In this document: in pieces, positions 111 to 64,000 of the stretch
Layout of the letters: every line of letters begins with the position of its first letter
How positions within the stretch are numbered: position 1 is the stretch's first letter
Assembly (NCBI GenBank): GCA_900696485.1
Contig: CAADGG010000013.1
Coordinates: forward strand, 51,771 to 115,770
DNA: 64,000 nucleotides
Direction of reading: 5' to 3'
Source: an uncultured Pseudomonadota bacterium
GTDB taxonomy: Bacteria; Myxococcota_A; UBA9160; PR03
Position numbers and translations under genes: made by a program
The notes under the pieces: generated by a model
Told to the model about the DNA's origin: nothing
The model's database searches: none
What the model saw: the letters and a program-made list of their open reading frames with translations, nothing else

Positions 111-473
<363 letters not shown>

Positions 474-15871: not shown

Positions 15872-16720
15872 TCACCCCCCTGCCGCGCGCGGGCCGTCGG
15901 CGACCTGCACGCGACGGGCGCGGAGGTCGGCCTGGAATTGCGCGGTGAACAGATCGATGGAGTTGCCGAGCTTGCGCAGCTGACCCACGTAGTGGTTGTA
16001 GAAGATCGATGCCGGGATCGCGGCCGCGAGGCCCATGGCGGTTGCGATCAGCGCCTCGGCGATCCCGGGCGCCACGACGGCCAGACTCGCACTGCCGGCC
16101 TCGCCGATCTGATGGAACGACGCGATGATCCCGACCACCGTGCCGAACAGGCCGACGAACGGCGCGGAGCTGCCGGTCGTCGCGAGGAACTCGAGCCCGC
16201 GCTCGAGGCGCTGCGCCTCGCCGGCCGCACTCCACTCGACGACGCGATCGAGAGTGCGTTGCTGCATCTCGCCGAGGCCGGACGCCAGCGACTTGCCCGC
16301 GTAGCGGGCGATTCGCGAGAGTTCGCCATAGCCGTCGAGGAAGATCTGGGCGAGCGGACTCGCCGACAGCTCACGCGCGGCATCGTGCGCCGACTCGAGT
16401 GAGCCTTCGTGGTACACCTCGAGGAATGCCTCGCTATCTTCGGCGGCGCGCCGGAGTTCGCGCCACTTGAAAGCGATGATGGCCCAGCTGATGACGGAGG
16501 CGAGCGCGAGCAGGAGGAGGACGAACTTGGCGAGCCAGCTCGCCTGGAGCATCAGGTCGAGAATGTCCAGGCTCGCAAGCTGCGCGCTTGGAACCTGTCC
16601 AGTCCAGATCTGTCCAGTCCAGATCTGACCGGTCCAGATCTGGCCGGTCAGATGACTGCTCCAGTGCTGACCTCCCCAGTGCGGGACCCCCCAGTCCGCC
16701 CCGGCGAGAATCACTGCCAT
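15872..16720 (-). CDS. tolQ: TolQ/ExbB/MotA-family proton channel with an N-terminal Trp-rich repeat extension
   Basis: Track ORF. ATG 16720 is preceded by GAGAGGA. LDILDLMLQASWLAKFVLLLLALASVISWAII aligns to the TolQ N-terminus. No alternative start exists between the repeat and that conserved segment. Confidence 0.85.
   Translation of the reverse strand: MAVILAGADWGVPHWGGQHWSSHLTGQIWTGQIWTGQIWTGQVPSAQLASLDILDLMLQASWLAKFVLLLLALASVISWAIIAFKWRELRRAAEDSEAFLEVYHEGSLESAHDAARELSASPLAQIFLDGYGELSRIARYAGKSLASGLGEMQQRTLDRVVEWSAAGEAQRLERGLEFLATTGSSAPFVGLFGTVVGIIASFHQIGEAGSASLAVVAPGIAEALIATAMGLAAAIPASIFYNHYVGQLRKLGNSIDLFTAQFQADLRARRVQVADGPRAAGG
16595..16654 (-). repeat. in-frame 15-nt tandem repeat (about 4 units) inside the tolQ 5' end
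   Basis: ctgtccagtccagat occurs twice, followed by ctgaccggtccagat and a degenerate fourth unit. The repeat encodes (GQIWT)3. Confidence 0.85.
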
Positions 16721-20027: not shown

Positions 20028-20423
20028 CTAGCCGTCCGTCTTCAGGATTGCCCGGTGGACGCGGACGGCGGCCCGGCGGAACGGACCCCGGCGCGCGACG
20101 CGATCGAGCCAGGCGCGACGAGCGTCGCGCGGGAGCCAGCTCAGACCGCGCGTCGAGTGCAGCAGCAGACGTGGCGACCACTCGAGCCAGCAGAGATCGC
20201 GGACGAGTCGTGCGCACGCGGCGGGCTCGAGCCCGCCACACGCGAGCGCCGCGACGACGTCCCGCCCGGCGGCCCGATCCGGGAGCCACGCGTCGGCGAC
20301 GTTGTAGAACGTGCGCGCCGCGTGCGGTGGGAGCGGCCAGGGTCCGGCGTGCGTCTCGGCGTCGGAGCGCGCCGGCATGGCCCGGACCGCGCCGCGATCG
20401 CCGGCCTCGCCGGCTCGGCTCAT
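20028..20423 (-). CDS. hypothetical protein (131 aa)
   Basis: These are the last 131 codons of track ORF 20028..22223. ATG 20423 overlaps the amidohydrolase stop (ATGA). The sequence is not low-complexity (FYNVADAWLPDR...CWLEWSPRLLLHSTRGLSWLPRD). Confidence 0.45.
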   Translation of the reverse strand: MSRAGEAGDRGAVRAMPARSDAETHAGPWPLPPHAARTFYNVADAWLPDRAAGRDVVAALACGGLEPAACARLVRDLCWLEWSPRLLLHSTRGLSWLPRDARRAWLDRVARRGPFRRAAVRVHRAILKTDG

Positions 20424-21691
20424 CCGGCCGTCTCGTGCGCGGCGAGCCAGCGCAGCGCCATCGCAGCGTGCAGCGCGACGCCGGTGGCCAGCGCCTCCTC
20501 GTCGATCGTCATGGAGCTCGAGTGGAGCGGCTCGGCGTGCTCGCCGGGCGGCCGGGCGCCGAGGAACACGATCGCACCGGGCACCTGCTGCAGCACGTAC
20601 GAGAAGTCCTCGGCCCCCATGATCGGCTTCGGGAGGTCGACGACTGCACGCTCGCCGAGCAGCTCGGCGGCGACGCCGCGCGTGAAGTCGATGAACGGTG
20701 CGTCGTTCACCGTCACGGGATAGCCGGGGAGGATGTGGACCTTCACGTCGACTTCGTGCGCGGCGCCGATTCCCGCGGCCACCCGCCGAATGCCTTCGTG
20801 GGCGGCCGTACGGGCGCGTTCCGACGTGCTGCGGATGGTCCCGAGCAGGTTCGCCGCGGCCGGGATCACGTTGGTCGTGGTGCCGCCGGAGAGGCGCGTG
20901 ATCGTGATCACGACCGGATCGAACGCATCGATCCGGCGCGTCACGAAACTCTGGAGGGCGAGCACGATCTCGCATGCGACCGGGATCGGATCGACGGCGT
21001 GGTGCGGCATCGACGCGTGGCCGCCGCGCCCGTGCAGGTCGATCGACAACACATCCGCGGATGCGAGCATCGGCCCGGGGCGGAGCGCGATGCGGCCCGG
21101 CGGCAGCGTCGAGTCCACGTGGATCGCGAACGCGGCGTCGACGGCCGGCGTCACCGCGAGCAGGCCCTCGTCCTCGACCAGGATGCGCGCGCCGCCGTGG
21201 CCTTCCTCGCCCGGCTGGAACAGCAGCTTCACGGTCCCGGCCAGCTCGTCGCGGCGGCGTGCCAGCAGGCCGGCGGCGCCGACCAGCATCGCCACGTGGG
21301 CGTCGTGGCCGCACGCGTGCATGCGGTCCTCGTAACGCGACGCGAAGGGCAATCCGGTGTGCTCCGGCATCGGCAGCGCGTCCATGTCCGCGCGCAACAG
21401 CAGCGTGCCGCCAGGCCGCGCACCGCGCAGCGTCGCGACGATGGCGCTGGTGCTGCCGCCCGTGTGGAGCTCGAGGTCGAGCGGCGCGAGCGCGTCGAGC
21501 ACGGCCTTCTGCGTATCGGGCAGCAGCAGGCCGAGTTCCGGGTTCTCGTGCAGACGCCGGCGCAGGGCGACGACGTCCGGCAGCGCGGCGCGGGCTTCCG
21601 GCAGCAGCGCCTCGAGCGCCGGGCGCCCCGCGTTCGCGGTGCGCGCCGACCGCGCAGAGCCGGATCCGGACGGGTCGAGTCGAGTGGTCAT
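20420..21691 (-). CDS. M20/M25/M40-family amidohydrolase (hippurate hydrolase / N-acyl-amino acid amidohydrolase type)
   Basis: Track ORF containing LRADMDALPM, MHACGHDAH and LLFQPGEEG. Confidence 0.85.
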   Translation of the reverse strand: MTTRLDPSGSGSARSARTANAGRPALEALLPEARAALPDVVALRRRLHENPELGLLLPDTQKAVLDALAPLDLELHTGGSTSAIVATLRGARPGGTLLLRADMDALPMPEHTGLPFASRYEDRMHACGHDAHVAMLVGAAGLLARRRDELAGTVKLLFQPGEEGHGGARILVEDEGLLAVTPAVDAAFAIHVDSTLPPGRIALRPGPMLASADVLSIDLHGRGGHASMPHHAVDPIPVACEIVLALQSFVTRRIDAFDPVVITITRLSGGTTTNVIPAAANLLGTIRSTSERARTAAHEGIRRVAAGIGAAHEVDVKVHILPGYPVTVNDAPFIDFTRGVAAELLGERAVVDLPKPIMGAEDFSYVLQQVPGAIVFLGARPPGEHAEPLHSSSMTIDEEALATGVALHAAMALRWLAAHETAG

Positions 21692-21696
21692 GGTCC

Positions 21697-21759
21697 GCTA
21701 GTGTCCTGTCTCGAAAGTGTTCCGTCTTGAAAGTGTTCCGTCTCGAACGTCTGCCGTCA
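21697..21759. promoter_or_regulatory. four 16-bp-phased direct repeats in the amidohydrolase/acylphosphatase divergent region
   Basis: gaaagtgttccgtct occurs twice perfectly (21713-21727 and 21729-21743). Degenerate copies lie at 21697-21711 and 21745-21759. The array starts 6 nt upstream of the amidohydrolase ATG. Confidence 0.6.
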
Positions 21760-43750: not shown

Positions 43751-44569
43751 TCAGCGATGCGGAGGAGCGGGCTTCGGATCCGATAGCAAGCGCCGCGCCA
43801 TCATCCGTTCATAGAGGGAAGGCGCCAGGCGGGTCAGCCAGTACGACGCATGCCCGACGGGCGAGAGCACGATCTGGCGACGGTTGCGCTGCACCGCCCG
43901 CACGATGGCCCGCGCCACCTGATCCGGTGTCGCGACGCGACCGGTGGTCGTGCGCACTTGTCGCGGGGGTCCCCCGTCCGGACCCAGCGCGGCGGCGGCA
44001 ATGCCCGTATCGGTGAAACCGGGACACACCAGCAGGACGCGCAGTCCGGCCTCCCGGCACTCGACGCGCAGGGACTCGAAGAGGCCATGCAAAGCGTGTT
44101 TGCTCGCGGCATAGCCGGCGCGGCCCGCCAGGGGCGCGAAGCCGGCGATGCTCGACAGGACGACCACCATGCCCTGCCGCGCCAGCAGACTCGGAAGCGC
44201 CGCCTGCGTGCAATGGACGGCCCCGAAGAAATTGACGTCCATCACCGCTCGCAAGACACTCACCTGTGTCTCAGCGACTGGACCGACGTGGGTGATGCCG
44301 GCGTTGTTCACGAGCACATCGATCCCGCCGAAGCGCTCCTCGACCGCCGCGAACGCACGCGTGCAGGACTCGGGGTCCGTCACATCGCAGGCCAGACCGA
44401 GGGTCTGCGTGCCGCCGGCGGCGAGTCGCTCGGCCAGAGCCAGGACGCCGGCTCCCTCGCGGTCCAGCAGCGCGAGCCGGGCTCCCTGCGCCGCGAAGCT
44501 GCGGCCGAGCGCGCTCCCGATCCCGCCCGCGGCTCCGGTGATCGCAACGACGTGGTTGTCGAGATCCAC
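43751..44569 (-). CDS. short-chain dehydrogenase/reductase
   Basis: Track ORF with a GTG start. The sequence contains ITGAAGGIGSALG and YAASK. Confidence 0.85.
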   Translation of the reverse strand: MDLDNHVVAITGAAGGIGSALGRSFAAQGARLALLDREGAGVLALAERLAAGGTQTLGLACDVTDPESCTRAFAAVEERFGGIDVLVNNAGITHVGPVAETQVSVLRAVMDVNFFGAVHCTQAALPSLLARQGMVVVLSSIAGFAPLAGRAGYAASKHALHGLFESLRVECREAGLRVLLVCPGFTDTGIAAAALGPDGGPPRQVRTTTGRVATPDQVARAIVRAVQRNRRQIVLSPVGHASYWLTRLAPSLYERMMARRLLSDPKPAPPHR

Positions 44570-44621
44570 CGGGGCAGCTCTCCTTGGCGAGTCGGCCGGG
44601 GCCGGTCCGGCCCCTGGCTCC

Positions 44622-44666
44622 GGTCCGGTTTGGTTCGGTCCGGTCCGGTTCGGTTCGGTTCAGTTC
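44622..44666. repeat. pentanucleotide tandem repeat (GGTYC) x9
   Basis: The units are ggtcc ggttt ggttc ggtcc ggtcc ggttc ggttc ggttc agttc. They lie in the 111-nt gap upstream of the SDR gene. Confidence 0.85.
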
Positions 44667-44680
44667 GACGCGCTCGGGCC

Positions 44681-61489: not shown

Positions 61490-62977
61490 TTATGGCTGCG
61501 CCGCGGGAGCGGGCTCCGGCGCGCTCGCCATCGACGGTGCGGCGGGCGCCGTCGCATCGGCCGTCCCGGTCGTCCGGAGCCGCTCGAAATAGCTCCAGCT
61601 CTTCAGCACCTCGAGGCCGCGTGCGAGCTGGATGTCGACGGCTTCGCCCTCCCCACGCTCGGCGTCCGCCGGCAGGCCCGGCAGCTCGATGCGCGGCCGC
61701 GAATCCTTCGCCGGCGCGACCAGATCCGGTTCGGCCTTCCGGTGCTGGAAGTGGCGTTCCAGATCCTTCTCGCGCAGCGGGCGCCCGTCGTCGGCCGCCG
61801 CAGCGCCGGCATCGGAGTCCCCGCCTTCCGCGGCGGCCGCTTCGACTTCCGCCCCGACCGTGATGTCCGGGGTGATGCCGACCTCCTGGATCGAGCGACC
61901 GCCCGGCGTGTAGTACAGCGCCGTCGTGAGGCGCAGACCCGACCCGTCCTCGAGCGGAAAGACCGTCTGCACGGAACCCTTGCCGAAGGTGTTCTCGCCG
62001 AGCACCAGCGCACGACCCTGGTCCTGCAACGCGCCGGCGACGATCTCCGAAGCGCTGGCGCTGCCGGCGTTCACCAGGACGACGATCGGGTAGTCCTGCC
62101 CGACGCCATCCGCGTGGGCGCGGAACTCCTGCTGTTGGTTGTCCACACGACCCTTCGTGTAGACGATCAGGCCGTCCTCGAGCCAAAGGTCCGCCACGCC
62201 GACCGCCTGATCGAGCAGCCCGCCGGGGTTGTCGCGAAGATCGAGCAGGAGCCCGTGCAAGCTGCCCTTCGATTCCTTCTGCACCCGAGCCAGCGCCTTC
62301 TCGAGATCCTCCGTCGTGCGCTCCTGGAACGAGCGGACGCGCAGATATCCGTAGTTCGGCTCGAGCGTCCGACCCTCGACCGATGCCACCTTCACGATGT
62401 CCCGCGTGACCTCGAAGGGTCGGGGCTCCGAGAACCCTTCGCGGAAGATGCGGACCGTGATCGCCGTGCCCCGCTTACCGCGCATCAGCTTCACGGCATC
62501 GAAGAGGCTCATGGTCTTGGTCGGCTTGCAGTCCTCGATCCAATCCTTCGGCTTCTCGGTCGGACAGATCGCGACGATCTGGTCCTTCGCCTTGATCCCG
62601 GCCTTCCACGCCGGCGTCCCCTCGATCGGTGACACCACCTCGATGTAGCCGTCCCGCCGCTTGCTGATCTCGATCCCGAGGCCGTGGAACTCGCCCCGCG
62701 TGTCGATCTGCATCTCCTTGTGCGCATCGGGATCCATGTACGACGAGTGCGGATCGAGCTCGGCGAGCAGGCCACGCACCGCGCCACGGATCAGCTCGGT
62801 CTCGTCGACGTCGTCGACGTAGTTGCGCCGCACCAGGTGCAACACCGAGCTGAGGAGGTTCAGATCCTCGTAGCGGGCAGCGGAGACGATGCCCCCGGAG
62901 CCCGGACCCAGGAAGACCGTGGCGCACAACACGCCGGCGGCGAACAGCAGGACGGAACGGAGAGTGCTGGGACGCAT
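61490..62977 (-). CDS. ctpA: S41-family carboxy-terminal processing protease with a PDZ domain
   Basis: Track ORF containing GLGIEI..., LDLRDNPGGLL and VLVNAGSASASEIVAGALQD. Confidence 0.9.
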   Translation of the reverse strand: MRPSTLRSVLLFAAGVLCATVFLGPGSGGIVSAARYEDLNLLSSVLHLVRRNYVDDVDETELIRGAVRGLLAELDPHSSYMDPDAHKEMQIDTRGEFHGLGIEISKRRDGYIEVVSPIEGTPAWKAGIKAKDQIVAICPTEKPKDWIEDCKPTKTMSLFDAVKLMRGKRGTAITVRIFREGFSEPRPFEVTRDIVKVASVEGRTLEPNYGYLRVRSFQERTTEDLEKALARVQKESKGSLHGLLLDLRDNPGGLLDQAVGVADLWLEDGLIVYTKGRVDNQQQEFRAHADGVGQDYPIVVLVNAGSASASEIVAGALQDQGRALVLGENTFGKGSVQTVFPLEDGSGLRLTTALYYTPGGRSIQEVGITPDITVGAEVEAAAAEGGDSDAGAAAADDGRPLREKDLERHFQHRKAEPDLVAPAKDSRPRIELPGLPADAERGEGEAVDIQLARGLEVLKSWSYFERLRTTGTADATAPAAPSMASAPEPAPAAQP

Positions 62978-63132
62978 CGAGATCCGGTGACTCCAGAAGA
63001 GTGGGAGGGCGCCGGGGCGCCTGCGGCGCCTCTGGCGGTGGCATCCCTCGGGTTTGCAATCGCTCGGTCGCCGGCTCTCGCCAGATCCCGTCGGATCCAG
63101 CCCGGTCGGATGCCGTCGAGTCCAGTTCTTGC

Positions 63133-63272
63133 GGCGCCGTCCTTTCGACGCCGTTCTTTCGACGCCGTCCTTTCGACGCCGTCCTTTCGACGCCGTCCTT
63201 TCGACGCCGTTCTTTCGACGGCGTTCCTTCGACGCCGTTCCTTCGACGGCGTTCCTTCGCTGGCGTTCTTGC
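63133..63272. repeat. 14-nt tandem repeat x10 (GACGCCGTCCTTTC and variants)
   Basis: GACG anchors recur exactly every 14 nt at 63147, 63161, 63175, 63189, 63203, 63217, 63231 and 63245. Degenerate first and last units complete the array. It lies in the 402-nt gap between the M23 gene and ctpA. Confidence 0.9.
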
Positions 63273-63379
63273 GGGTCGTCGCGGGCTGTTCCGGGGATCC
63301 CTTCCGGGTGTTGGTCCGAACCGACTGCTTCGATCCGCAGCCCGTCGGAGTTTAGCCGGACCGGCCGGGCGCGTCCCGG

Positions 63380-64000
63380 TCAGGGCCGGCCGCCACCCCG
63401 CCGGATCCAGGCGCGCGGATCGACGGCCTCGCCTCCCTCCCGGACTTCGAAATACAGCCGGGGCCCCACCAGCGAGCCGGTGTCGCCGACCGTTCCGATC
63501 TTCTGGCCGCCCTCGACGATATCGCCGACCTCCACGCGCAGCTCATCGAGGTGGCCGTGGACCGTGAAGAAGCGCTCGCCGTGGTCCAGGATCGCCATCC
63601 GGCCGTACCCGCGAAACCAGCCGGCGAAGCGCACGACGCCACCGGCGACGGCCTGCACCTCGGTCCCACGCGGCGCCTCGAACTCGACGCCCTGCGAGAA
63701 GATCTCGGTCCGGAACTGGGCGTCGACCTGCCGTCCGAACGGCCGTACGATCGGCGCTTCGACCGGCGCCGGAAGGCGGCCGCGCAGGGATGAGAAGGCG
63801 GGGCCGTCGGGCAGCGCCGGCAGCGGCGCCGGCGCATCGCCGAGTTCCGCGATCGCGGCCTCGAGCGCGCGCGCAGCTTCTTCCAACCCCGCCAGGACAG
63901 AATCTTCGCGCGCGCGATGGCCGCGAACGGCGGCGAGCAGGCGCCCCTTGCCCCGCCTCTCGGCAGCCAGCTCCTCGTGCCGCGCCGTCAGCTCTGCCAG
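63380..64000 (-). CDS. M23 peptidase / EnvC-like murein hydrolase activator (5' end outside the window)
   Basis: The frame is open from 64000 to the stop at 63380. A coiled-coil part is followed by the LytM-type domain GVEFEAPRGTEVQAVAGGVVRFAGWFRGYGRMAILDHG...HGHL. Confidence 0.8.
   Translation of the reverse strand: MAELTARHEELAAERRGKGRLLAAVRGHRAREDSVLAGLEEAARALEAAIAELGDAPAPLPALPDGPAFSSLRGRLPAPVEAPIVRPFGRQVDAQFRTEIFSQGVEFEAPRGTEVQAVAGGVVRFAGWFRGYGRMAILDHGERFFTVHGHLDELRVEVGDIVEGGQKIGTVGDTGSLVGPRLYFEVREGGEAVDPRAWIRRGGGRP

What the first reader, a model, noticed from the sequence alone, without database searches (positions are those of the whole stretch)
63133..63272. Ten-copy 14-nt tandem array presenting evenly spaced AAGGA motifs: Csr/Rsm-sponge-like RNA, iteron array or VNTR
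Ten head-to-tail 14-nt units fill 140 nt of the 402-nt gap between the M23/EnvC-like gene and ctpA. The unit is GACGCCGTCCTTTC, drifting to GACGGCGTTCCTTC. A period of 14 is not a multiple of 3, so the repetitive peptides in track ORFs 62684..63355 and 63001..63567 are artefacts.

On the strand shared by both flanking genes the array reads (GAAAGGACGGCGUC)10. Each unit offers an A-N-GGA motif and a potential 4-bp CGUC/GACG stem with a GAAAG loop.

Multiple regularly spaced GGA motifs are the hallmark of CsrB/RsmY/RsmZ-type protein-sponge RNAs. Alternatives are a DNA-binding-protein array or a hypervariable minisatellite.
Basis: partly seen in the sequence, partly recalled or inferred. Interest (0 to 1): 0.6.

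Follow-up and report, generated by a model that had tools for sequence, protein, structure and literature searches.

The report
Strain-variable 14-nt minisatellite upstream of ctpA
The repeat array is real, but it is best explained as an ordinary species-specific non-coding minisatellite between two cell-envelope protease genes of an uncultured Myxococcota bacterium, not as a Csr/Rsm-type sponge RNA.

Summary
The array is real. Tandem Repeats Finder places it at 63125..63270, with period 14, 10.4 copies and score 194, the highest in the window. It lies in the 402-nt spacer between an EnvC-like M23 peptidase gene and ctpA (S41 peptidase). Both genes are on the minus strand, in the cluster ftsE-ftsX-envC-[array]-ctpA-xseA-xseB-ispA-dxs.

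Only 7 of 11 in-register units carry AAGGA on the transcribed strand. Two core units read GAAAGAAC and both end units read GCAAGAAC.

Assemblies of the same species differ in the array:
- 99.95-99.98% identical DNA: identical array.
- 99.4% identical (4.77-Mb contig): one unit fewer, with a new junction that a second assembly also shows.
- About 96.5% identical (2.6-Mb contig): 7 units of a different make-up.

Six syntenic loci from the next relatives found (about 82-84% DNA identity where measured, 83-86% CtpA identity) have no array, and their spacer is about 230-310 nt. No other copy was found in the window, in the metagenome contig collection or in the viral contigs.

There is no Rfam match and no promoter- or terminator-like site in the spacer. 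Folding gives no stable hairpin display of GGA.

Verdict: a lineage-specific variable-number tandem repeat (VNTR) formed by slippage or unequal recombination, probably a passive passenger in the operon spacer. The sponge reading is not supported. Interest is low.

The parts
63125..63278 (-). 14-nt tandem array, 11 units in register. The 9 core units span 63139..63264. The degenerate end units are 63125..63138 (GGCGCCGCAAGAAC) and 63265..63278 (CGACCCGCAAGAAC). Consensus on the transcribed strand is GGCGTCGAAAGGAC.
   Evidence: TRF 63125..63270, period 14, 10.4 copies, score 194. Constant 14-nt register. Unit list. Copy number is 11, 10 or 7 in different strains.
62978..63379 (-). The envC-ctpA spacer (402 nt) that holds the array. 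Non-coding.
   Evidence: ORF list. Spacer lengths of 402, 388 and 346 nt in different strains do not preserve a reading frame. The spacer is about 230-310 nt and has no array in relatives.
63352..63379 (-). First 28 nt of the spacer. This stretch is homologous to the 3' coding end and stop codon of envC in relatives, where EnvC is 398 aa against 389 aa here. It is not a separate conserved element.
   Evidence: Alignment A1. In L009 the envC ORF ends at TAG, which aligns with TAA in GGCTAAACTCC of the window.
63380..64000 (-). 3' part of the EnvC-like M23 peptidase gene (runs off the window), upstream neighbour of the array. In full-length loci ftsE and ftsX precede it.
   Evidence: Pfam Peptidase_M23 E=4e-29. 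Gene order in L001-L004.
61490..62977 (-). ctpA, a carboxy-terminal processing S41 peptidase and the downstream neighbour. The array ends 148 nt upstream of its ATG.
   Evidence: Pfam Peptidase_S41, CtpB_N-like and PDZ. 100% identical protein named 'S41 family peptidase [Myxococcota bacterium]'.
62978..63124 (-). Proximal spacer between the array and ctpA. It contains the conserved GGAGTCACCGGATCTCG-ATG ribosome-binding region. It also contains a stretch that aligns with a block ending CCGCCGAAYCGT, which is conserved in most relatives but diverged in the window, L166 and L160.
   Evidence: Alignment of the proximal 160 nt from 10 loci.

Best explanation
The array is a lineage-specific, non-coding minisatellite (VNTR) in the spacer between envC and ctpA.

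Inferred origin: a roughly 14-nt segment of the spacer was duplicated. Both end units still read CCGCAAGAAC.

Inferred dynamics: the array has since grown, shrunk and been partly homogenised by replication slippage or unequal recombination.

Inferred present role: it is carried passively, and is probably transcribed as part of the ftsEX-envC-ctpA message or the ctpA leader. It has no dedicated function. At most, its length or weak self-pairing slightly changes ctpA expression.

Shown here: the array exists, is non-coding, varies between strains, is restricted to one species-level lineage and has no other copies in the searched data.

Not shown: the mechanism of origin, the transcription status and the neutrality are all inferences.
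For: 1. Variation within the species.
- Loci 99.98% and 99.95% identical (L001 NCBI, L003 ENA) carry the identical 11-unit array.
- L164 (GCA_027493655.1, 4.77-Mb contig, 99.4% identical) lacks one unit. This creates a junction, GAAAGAAC|GGCGCCGC, that is absent from the window allele. An independent Logan contig (L165) shows the same junction.
- L166 (2.6-Mb contig, about 96.5% identical) has 7 units. Its GCCAGC unit is duplicated and three adjacent units have changed to GACGTC, which indicates concerted evolution.
- The array has diverged far more than its flanks, which show 7 differences in 263 nt of spacer.

2. Absence from relatives. Six syntenic loci at 83-86% CtpA identity (L160, L161, L162, L163, L009, L008; about 82-84% DNA identity for the three measured) keep the gene order but have spacers of about 230-310 nt without the array.

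3. The same spacer is prone to repeats in relatives, but with unrelated units: GTCGATCGTTCCGAGG x2 in L161 and GTCTCGCGGGATCRA x2 in L008.

4. No dispersed family. No other copy occurs in the 64-kb window. Two consecutive units give 0 matches in metagenome contigs and in viral contigs.

5. Non-coding. The period is 14, spacer lengths of 402, 388 and 346 nt do not preserve a frame, and the overlapping ORFs are artefacts.

6. No sign of a discrete RNA gene. There is no Rfam hit and no promoter or terminator consensus. The array's centroid structure is almost all unpaired, with a z-score of only -2.3.
Against: - A function cannot be excluded from sequence alone. The array has persisted across about 3.5% DNA divergence within the species.
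- AAGGA-bearing units are kept in every allele (5, 6 or 7 of them).
- The unit junctions form near-palindromes (GACGSCGTC) that a protein could recognise.
- No transcript data were available.
- Only five informative independent assemblies were compared.
- Two further short alleles from Logan contigs (L002, L004) contain no 31-mer that is absent from the window allele. They may be k=31 assembly artefacts, so I did not count them.
Confidence: 0.72

Rival explanations
1. The array is a cis-acting element of the ctpA leader RNA. The repeated AAGGA motifs would bind a CsrA-type protein or 30S ribosomal subunits (they resemble Shine-Dalgarno sequences), so that copy number tunes ctpA translation.
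For: Seven AAGGA motifs lie on the transcribed strand 148-290 nt upstream of the ctpA ATG. No terminator-like site lies between envC and ctpA, so the array is probably part of an mRNA. All three alleles retain AAGGA-bearing units.
Against: The array is absent from the six syntenic relative loci, which keep the same gene pair, so ctpA does not need it. The motif count varies among strains (7, 6, 5). GGA is mostly predicted to be paired, with 1 of 7 fully unpaired. The motifs lie far from the real ribosome-binding region, GGAGTCACCGGATCTCG-ATG. Whether the genome encodes CsrA is unknown.
Confidence: 0.12
2. The array is an independent Csr/Rsm-type sponge sRNA. It would be transcribed from its own promoter and would sequester a CsrA-family protein through multiple GGA sites.
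For: The only support is the count of GGA motifs: 7 in about 150 nt. That density is similar to RsmY and RsmZ (my own knowledge).
Against: There is no Rfam match at E<=10. No promoter-like or terminator-like site occurs in the spacer. The array is embedded between co-oriented genes of one cluster. Folding predicts no hairpin-loop display of GGA. The array is not conserved beyond one species. Copy number is unstable. Known sponge RNAs are not perfect head-to-tail arrays (my own knowledge).
Confidence: 0.03
3. The array is a set of DNA-binding sites. Each unit junction forms a 9-bp near-palindrome (GACGSCGTC) at 14-bp spacing, which a dimeric regulator controlling ctpA or the cell-division cluster could recognise.
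For: Near-palindromes occur at every unit junction, as the sequence shows directly. L166 has the variant CGACGTCG, an 8-bp perfect palindrome. The array lies upstream of the proximal ctpA leader or promoter region.
Against: A 14-bp period is out of phase with the DNA helix. The sites are absent in relatives with the same gene pair. No regulator or replication gene is adjacent. The number of sites varies between strains. The palindrome changes register between strains, as expected if it is a by-product of the repeat.
Confidence: 0.08
4. The array is an assembly artefact.
For: Logan (k=31) contigs break inside the array (L005-L007). Two Logan contigs show shorter alleles that contain no 31-mer absent from the window allele.
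Against: The identical 11-unit array occurs in the window, in an NCBI MAG contig and in an ENA SPAdes contig. Related alleles occur in two megabase-scale contigs.
Confidence: 0.01

Closest known systems
Bacterial VNTR or minisatellite loci, as used in MLVA typing, including the intercistronic MIRU-VNTRs of Mycobacterium tuberculosis (my own knowledge)
   Same: Head-to-tail non-coding repeats lie in a spacer between co-oriented genes of an operon. Flanks are conserved. Copy number and unit sequence differ between strains. End units are degenerate and interior units are homogenised.
   Different: The unit is only 14 nt, whereas MIRUs are about 40-100 bp and occur at some 40 loci. No second locus with this unit was found in the data searched. 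Variation is moderate: strains at 99.95% identity or more share the same allele.
CsrB, RsmY and RsmZ protein-sponge sRNAs
   Same: Several A(N)GGA motifs occur within about 150 nt of a purine-rich RNA strand.
   Different: There is no own promoter or terminator, no Rfam match and no predicted stem-loop display of GGA. The array is an exact tandem repeat, is not conserved outside one species and is embedded in an operon spacer. The cognate protein was not shown to exist.
Plasmid and phage iterons
   Same: Directly repeated short DNA units.
   Different: Iterons are typically 17-22 bp, sit next to a rep gene or origin and are conserved together with their binding protein. Here the neighbours are envC and ctpA, and the array is dispensable in relatives.
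Short-repeat contingency loci (phase-variable promoters and genes of Neisseria and Haemophilus)
   Same: Repeat-number changes occur near a gene start and could in principle alter its expression.
   Different: Contingency repeats have units of 1-7 nt and sit inside coding regions or between the -35 and -10 promoter elements. They change at very high rates. This array is 148 nt from the start codon and is identical among strains at 99.95% identity or more.

Membership tests
VNTR / minisatellite | Head-to-tail repeats of a unit of roughly 10-100 bp | tested here: met
   Period 14, 10.4 copies, no indels.
VNTR / minisatellite | Copy number differs between strains while the flanks stay conserved | tested here: met
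   11, 10 and 7 units in the window/L001/L003, L164 and L166. Flanks are 99.4% and about 96.5% identical. The L164 junction is confirmed in L165. The Logan alleles L002 and L004 were not counted.
VNTR / minisatellite | Unit variants arranged in blocks, and degenerate end units (concerted evolution) | tested here: met
   GAAGGAAC units cluster at the 5' side and GAAAGGAC units at the 3' side. Both end units read GCAAGAAC. L166 has three adjacent GACGTC variants.
CsrB/RsmZ-type sponge sRNA | Independent transcription unit with its own promoter and terminator | tested here: inconclusive
   Consensus scans find 0 promoter-like sites, and no terminator-like site in the spacer. The scans cover only sigma-70-type promoters and intrinsic terminators, and no transcript data were available.
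CsrB/RsmZ-type sponge sRNA | Many GGA motifs displayed in hairpin loops or single-stranded stretches | tested here: not met
   7 GGA in 11 units. Only 1 of the 7 has all three bases at P(unpaired) >= 0.9. The centroid structure is undefined. This is a prediction only.
CsrB/RsmZ-type sponge sRNA | Match to a curated family model | tested here: not met
   No Rfam hit on the array at E<=10 or at gathering score.
CsrB/RsmZ-type sponge sRNA | Cognate CsrA/RsmA protein encoded in the genome | not testable with these tools
   Only 64 kb of a roughly 4.45-Mb genome is available. tblastn with three CsrA/RsmA sequences against the window gives nothing significant (best E=0.034), which is uninformative. 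Two literature searches gave nothing on CsrA in Myxococcota.
CsrB/RsmZ-type sponge sRNA | Conservation of the RNA among related species | tested here: not met
   Absent from six syntenic loci at 83-86% CtpA identity.
Iteron array | Adjacent to a replication initiator gene or origin | tested here: not met
   The neighbours are ftsE, ftsX, envC, ctpA and xseA.
Dispersed repeat family (MIRU/REP-like) | The same unit occurs at multiple loci | tested here: inconclusive
   No other copy in the 64-kb window and none in the metagenome or viral collections. The rest of the genome could not be scanned.
CRISPR array | Repeats separated by unique spacers | tested here: not met
   Units abut directly, with a constant start-to-start spacing of 14 nt.

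The most novel reading that the evidence does not exclude
The array could act as a strain-variable 'rheostat' in the ctpA leader. The number of AAGGA-bearing units (5, 6 or 7 in the alleles seen) would set how much of a CsrA-like protein, or how many 30S subunits, is captured upstream of ctpA. That would tune the level of a cell-envelope processing protease relative to FtsEX-EnvC.
Probability: 0.06. Interest if true: 0.5.

Novelty: new member of a known kind. Interest (0 to 1): 0.12.

Why it matters
It matters little beyond this organism. In practice the locus is a usable strain-typing marker for this uncultured Myxococcota species. It also breaks or collapses k=31 assemblies, so copy number read from such contigs should not be trusted. 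If the low-probability regulatory reading were true, it would be an example of repeat-number control of a periplasmic protease gene next to the FtsEX-EnvC division module.

Tried and rejected
- Rfam search at E<=10 on 62000..64000, and at gathering score on the whole window. Nothing falls on the array; the only hit is a tmRNA at 111..473.
- Promoter and terminator consensus scan. Nothing in the spacer.
- Scan of metagenome contigs and viral contigs for two consecutive degenerate units. 0 matches in each.
- Logan contigs as evidence for copy-number variation. Rejected for L002 (one unit fewer) and L004 (four fewer), because every 31-mer of those alleles is present in the window allele. The window allele also has 11 repeated 31-mers, which explains why contigs L005-L007 break inside the array.
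- The apparently conserved start of the spacer (GGCTAAACTCC), considered as a -10 promoter box. Rejected: it aligns with the 3' coding end and stop codon of the longer envC of relatives.
- Read-through or fusion coding. The whole 402-nt spacer is open in the ctpA frame and the envC stop codon is in that frame. Rejected because the 388- and 346-nt alleles break the frame and relatives lack the sequence.
- A sigma-54 promoter reading of TGGCGA...TTGCA in the proximal spacer. Checked by eye; the GG-to-GC spacing is wrong.
- Search for csrA in the window by tblastn and in the literature for Myxococcota. Both were uninformative.
- A possible shared motif (TCGA...GGAAC) between this array and the 16-nt repeat at 21700..21758. 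It is too short to separate from chance, and that second repeat shows no length change in GCA_027493655.1.

Full report
**Observation**

The region was read directly. Tandem Repeats Finder reports one array at 63125..63270 with period 14, 10.4 copies, 90% matches and no indels. Its score of 194 is the highest of 93 rows in the window; the next best is 104. The repeat finder shows a constant 14-nt register.

The degenerate unit GSCGTCGAARGRAC matches 8 times exactly, all inside the array. With one mismatch allowed, 9 matches occur in the window against 0.58 expected, and 0 of 100 shuffles reach 9.

The array lies in a 402-nt gap (62978..63379). The gap separates ctpA (61490..62977, minus; Peptidase_S41 E=1e-57, plus CtpB_N-like and PDZ) from the 3' part of an M23 peptidase gene (63380..>64000, minus; E=4e-29).

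The two + strand ORFs that cross the array have no Pfam match. Their third-position GC is 0.68 and 0.59, against 0.86-0.88 for the real genes.

On the transcribed (minus) strand the 11 in-register units are:
- CGACCCGCAAGAAC
- GCCAGCGAAGGAAC
- GCCGTCGAAGGAAC
- GGCGTCGAAGGAAC
- GCCGTCGAAAGAAC
- GGCGTCGAAAGGAC (three copies)
- GGCGTCGAAAGAAC
- GGCGTCGAAAGGAC
- GGCGCCGCAAGAAC

Only 7 units contain GGA, and the spacings between them are 14, 14, 29, 14, 14 and 28 nt. So not 'each unit' carries the motif, and the motifs are not evenly spaced.

**Organism and context**

The CtpA protein is 100% identical to 'S41 family peptidase [Myxococcota bacterium]' and is seen on 70 contigs, the longest 4.45 Mb. 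The window is 70.7% G+C.

In full-length loci the gene order on the transcribed strand is ftsE, ftsX, envC (M23), [array], ctpA, xseA, xseB, ispA, dxs.

The spacer has no sigma-70-like promoter and no intrinsic-terminator-like site. There is no Rfam match at E<=10.

**Relatives**

A scan of species-representative genomes and of metagenome contigs with CtpA gave 72 and 80 loci. TRF on the 72 genome loci found no comparable array upstream of ctpA.

The next relatives found have 83-86% CtpA identity: L160, L161, L162, L163, L009 and L008. DNA identity is about 82-84% for the three measured. They keep the same gene order, but their spacer is about 230-310 nt and has no array.

The 'conserved' beginning of the window's spacer (…GGCTAAACTCC) is the 3' coding end and stop codon of the longer envC of these relatives (398 aa against 389 aa). 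It is not a regulatory box.

The same spacer in relatives carries its own small, unrelated duplications: GTCGATCGTTCCGAGG x2 in L161 and GTCTCGCGGGATCRA x2 in L008. The spacer therefore seems generally prone to short tandem duplication.

What is conserved is the proximal leader. The ribosome-binding region GGAGTCACCGGATCTCG-ATG is shared. A block ending CCGCCGAAYCGT is conserved in most relatives and diverged in the window, L166 and L160. Both lie downstream of the position of the array.

**Variation within the species**

| Locus | Source | DNA identity to window | Array |
|---|---|---|---|
| L001 | NCBI MAG GCA_023384285.1 | 99.98% | identical, 11 units |
| L003 | ENA SPAdes contig | 99.95% | identical, 11 units |
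| L164 | GCA_027493655.1, 4.77-Mb contig | 99.4% | 10 units |
| L166 | ERZ25039603, 2.6-Mb contig | about 96.5% | 7 units |

L164 lacks the last GGCGTCGAAAGGAC unit. This creates the junction GAAAGAAC|GGCGCCGC, which does not exist in the window allele. An independent Logan contig from another sample (L165) shows the same junction.

In L166 the GCCAGC unit is duplicated, and three adjacent units carry GACGTC instead of GGCGTC. That is the pattern expected from concerted evolution. Meanwhile the 263 nt of flanking spacer differ at only 7 positions.

Spacer lengths of 402, 388 and 346 nt do not preserve a reading frame. This rules out a coding or read-through role, even though the 402-nt allele happens to be open in the ctpA frame.

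**A caution about short-read assemblies**

Two Logan contigs show one unit fewer (L002) and four fewer (L004), and three Logan contigs end inside the array (L005-L007). Every 31-mer of the L002 and L004 alleles is present in the window allele, and the window allele has 11 repeated 31-mers. Logan assemblies use k=31 (my own knowledge). These shorter alleles and the contig breaks are therefore what a k=31 assembler would produce from the 11-unit allele, and I did not count them as evidence.

**RNA structure**

The array folded as RNA has an MFE of -63.6 kcal/mol, with a z-score of -2.3 against shuffles. Its centroid is almost entirely unpaired. That is typical of a repeat that can pair in many alternative registers.

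Over the whole spacer, only one of the seven array GGA triplets has all three bases unpaired with probability of at least 0.9. In most of them the second G and the A are paired, within the GACG/CGUC stems. This is not the loop-displayed GGA architecture of CsrB or RsmZ.

**Other copies**

There is none in the window. Two consecutive units give none in the metagenome contig collection or the viral contigs. I could not scan the rest of the genome.

**Interpretation**

The best-supported reading is a species-specific, non-coding VNTR (confidence about 0.7). It probably arose from a duplicated segment of about 14 nt, since both end units still read CCGCAAGAAC. It changes by slippage or unequal recombination and rides passively in the operon spacer or ctpA leader.

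Its rate of change is moderate:
- no change between strains at 99.95% identity or more;
- one unit at 99.4% identity;
- extensive remodelling at about 96.5% identity.

The rivals and my confidence in each:
- Cis-acting AAGGA array in the ctpA leader, binding CsrA or ribosomes: about 0.12.
- DNA-binding array at the GACGSCGTC near-palindromes: about 0.08.
- Separate sponge sRNA: about 0.03.
- Assembly artefact: about 0.01, refuted by five concordant independent assemblies.

None of the functional readings is excluded by sequence alone. All are weakened by the absence of the array in relatives that keep the same gene pair, and by its instability between strains.

**What I could not do**

I had no transcript data and no access to the complete genome. 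I could therefore not test for csrA or for other copies of the unit elsewhere in the genome. tblastn of three CsrA/RsmA sequences against the window was negative, as expected for 64 kb. Literature searches on CsrA in Myxococcota gave nothing useful.

**Verdict**

The feature is real, its nature is ordinary and interest is low (0.12). It is a new member of a known kind (bacterial minisatellite/VNTR). The headline sponge idea is not supported.

Noticed in passing
window 111..473 (-): A tmRNA gene (Rfam RF00023, 145 bits, E=6e-57), the only Rfam match at gathering score in the window.
   Followed up: no
window 21700..21758: A second non-coding tandem repeat: 16-nt unit, 3.7 copies. On the minus strand it reads TTCGAGACGGAACACT and ends 8 nt upstream of the ATG of an M20 peptidase/amidohydrolase gene (20420..21691, minus). 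It shares a loose TCGA...GGAAC core with the ctpA array, too short to separate from chance. The spacing between this gene and the gene upstream of it is the same in GCA_027493655.1 and in two Logan contigs, so no copy-number change was seen.
   Followed up: partly
window 16595..16664: A 15-nt x4 tandem repeat that is coding. It encodes IWTGQ x3 near the N-terminus of the ORF 15872..16720 (minus).
   Followed up: partly
window 62978..63382: The envC stop codon (TGA) is in the same frame as ctpA, and the whole 402-nt spacer has no stop codon in that frame. I judged this a coincidence of high G+C content, because the 388-nt and 346-nt alleles shift the frame.
   Followed up: yes
window 63352..63382; L009 3726..3755: EnvC is 389 aa in this species against 398 aa in relatives. 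The old 3' coding end and stop codon are still recognisable as the first 28 nt of the spacer.
   Followed up: partly
L161 2269..2500; L008 2265..2492; L009 3756..4000: Relatives carry their own unrelated 15-16-nt tandem duplications (2-3 copies) in the same envC-ctpA spacer. This suggests a local hot spot for short tandem duplication.
   Followed up: partly
window 62978..63124 and the equivalent region in L008, L009, L080-L082, L161 and L163: A block ending CCGCCGAAYCGT, about 60-100 nt upstream of the ctpA ATG, is conserved down to 75% CtpA identity but has diverged in the window species. It could be a promoter or a leader element. Its function is unknown.
   Followed up: no
L005-L007, L002 and L004 (Logan contigs): k=31 assemblies break or collapse exactly at the array, where the window allele has 11 repeated 31-mers. 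Copy numbers read from such contigs are unreliable.
   Followed up: yes
window 44619..44667: A (CGGTT)n run of 9.4 copies at the 5' end of the stop-to-stop frame 43751..44659 (minus). I did not examine it further.
   Followed up: no
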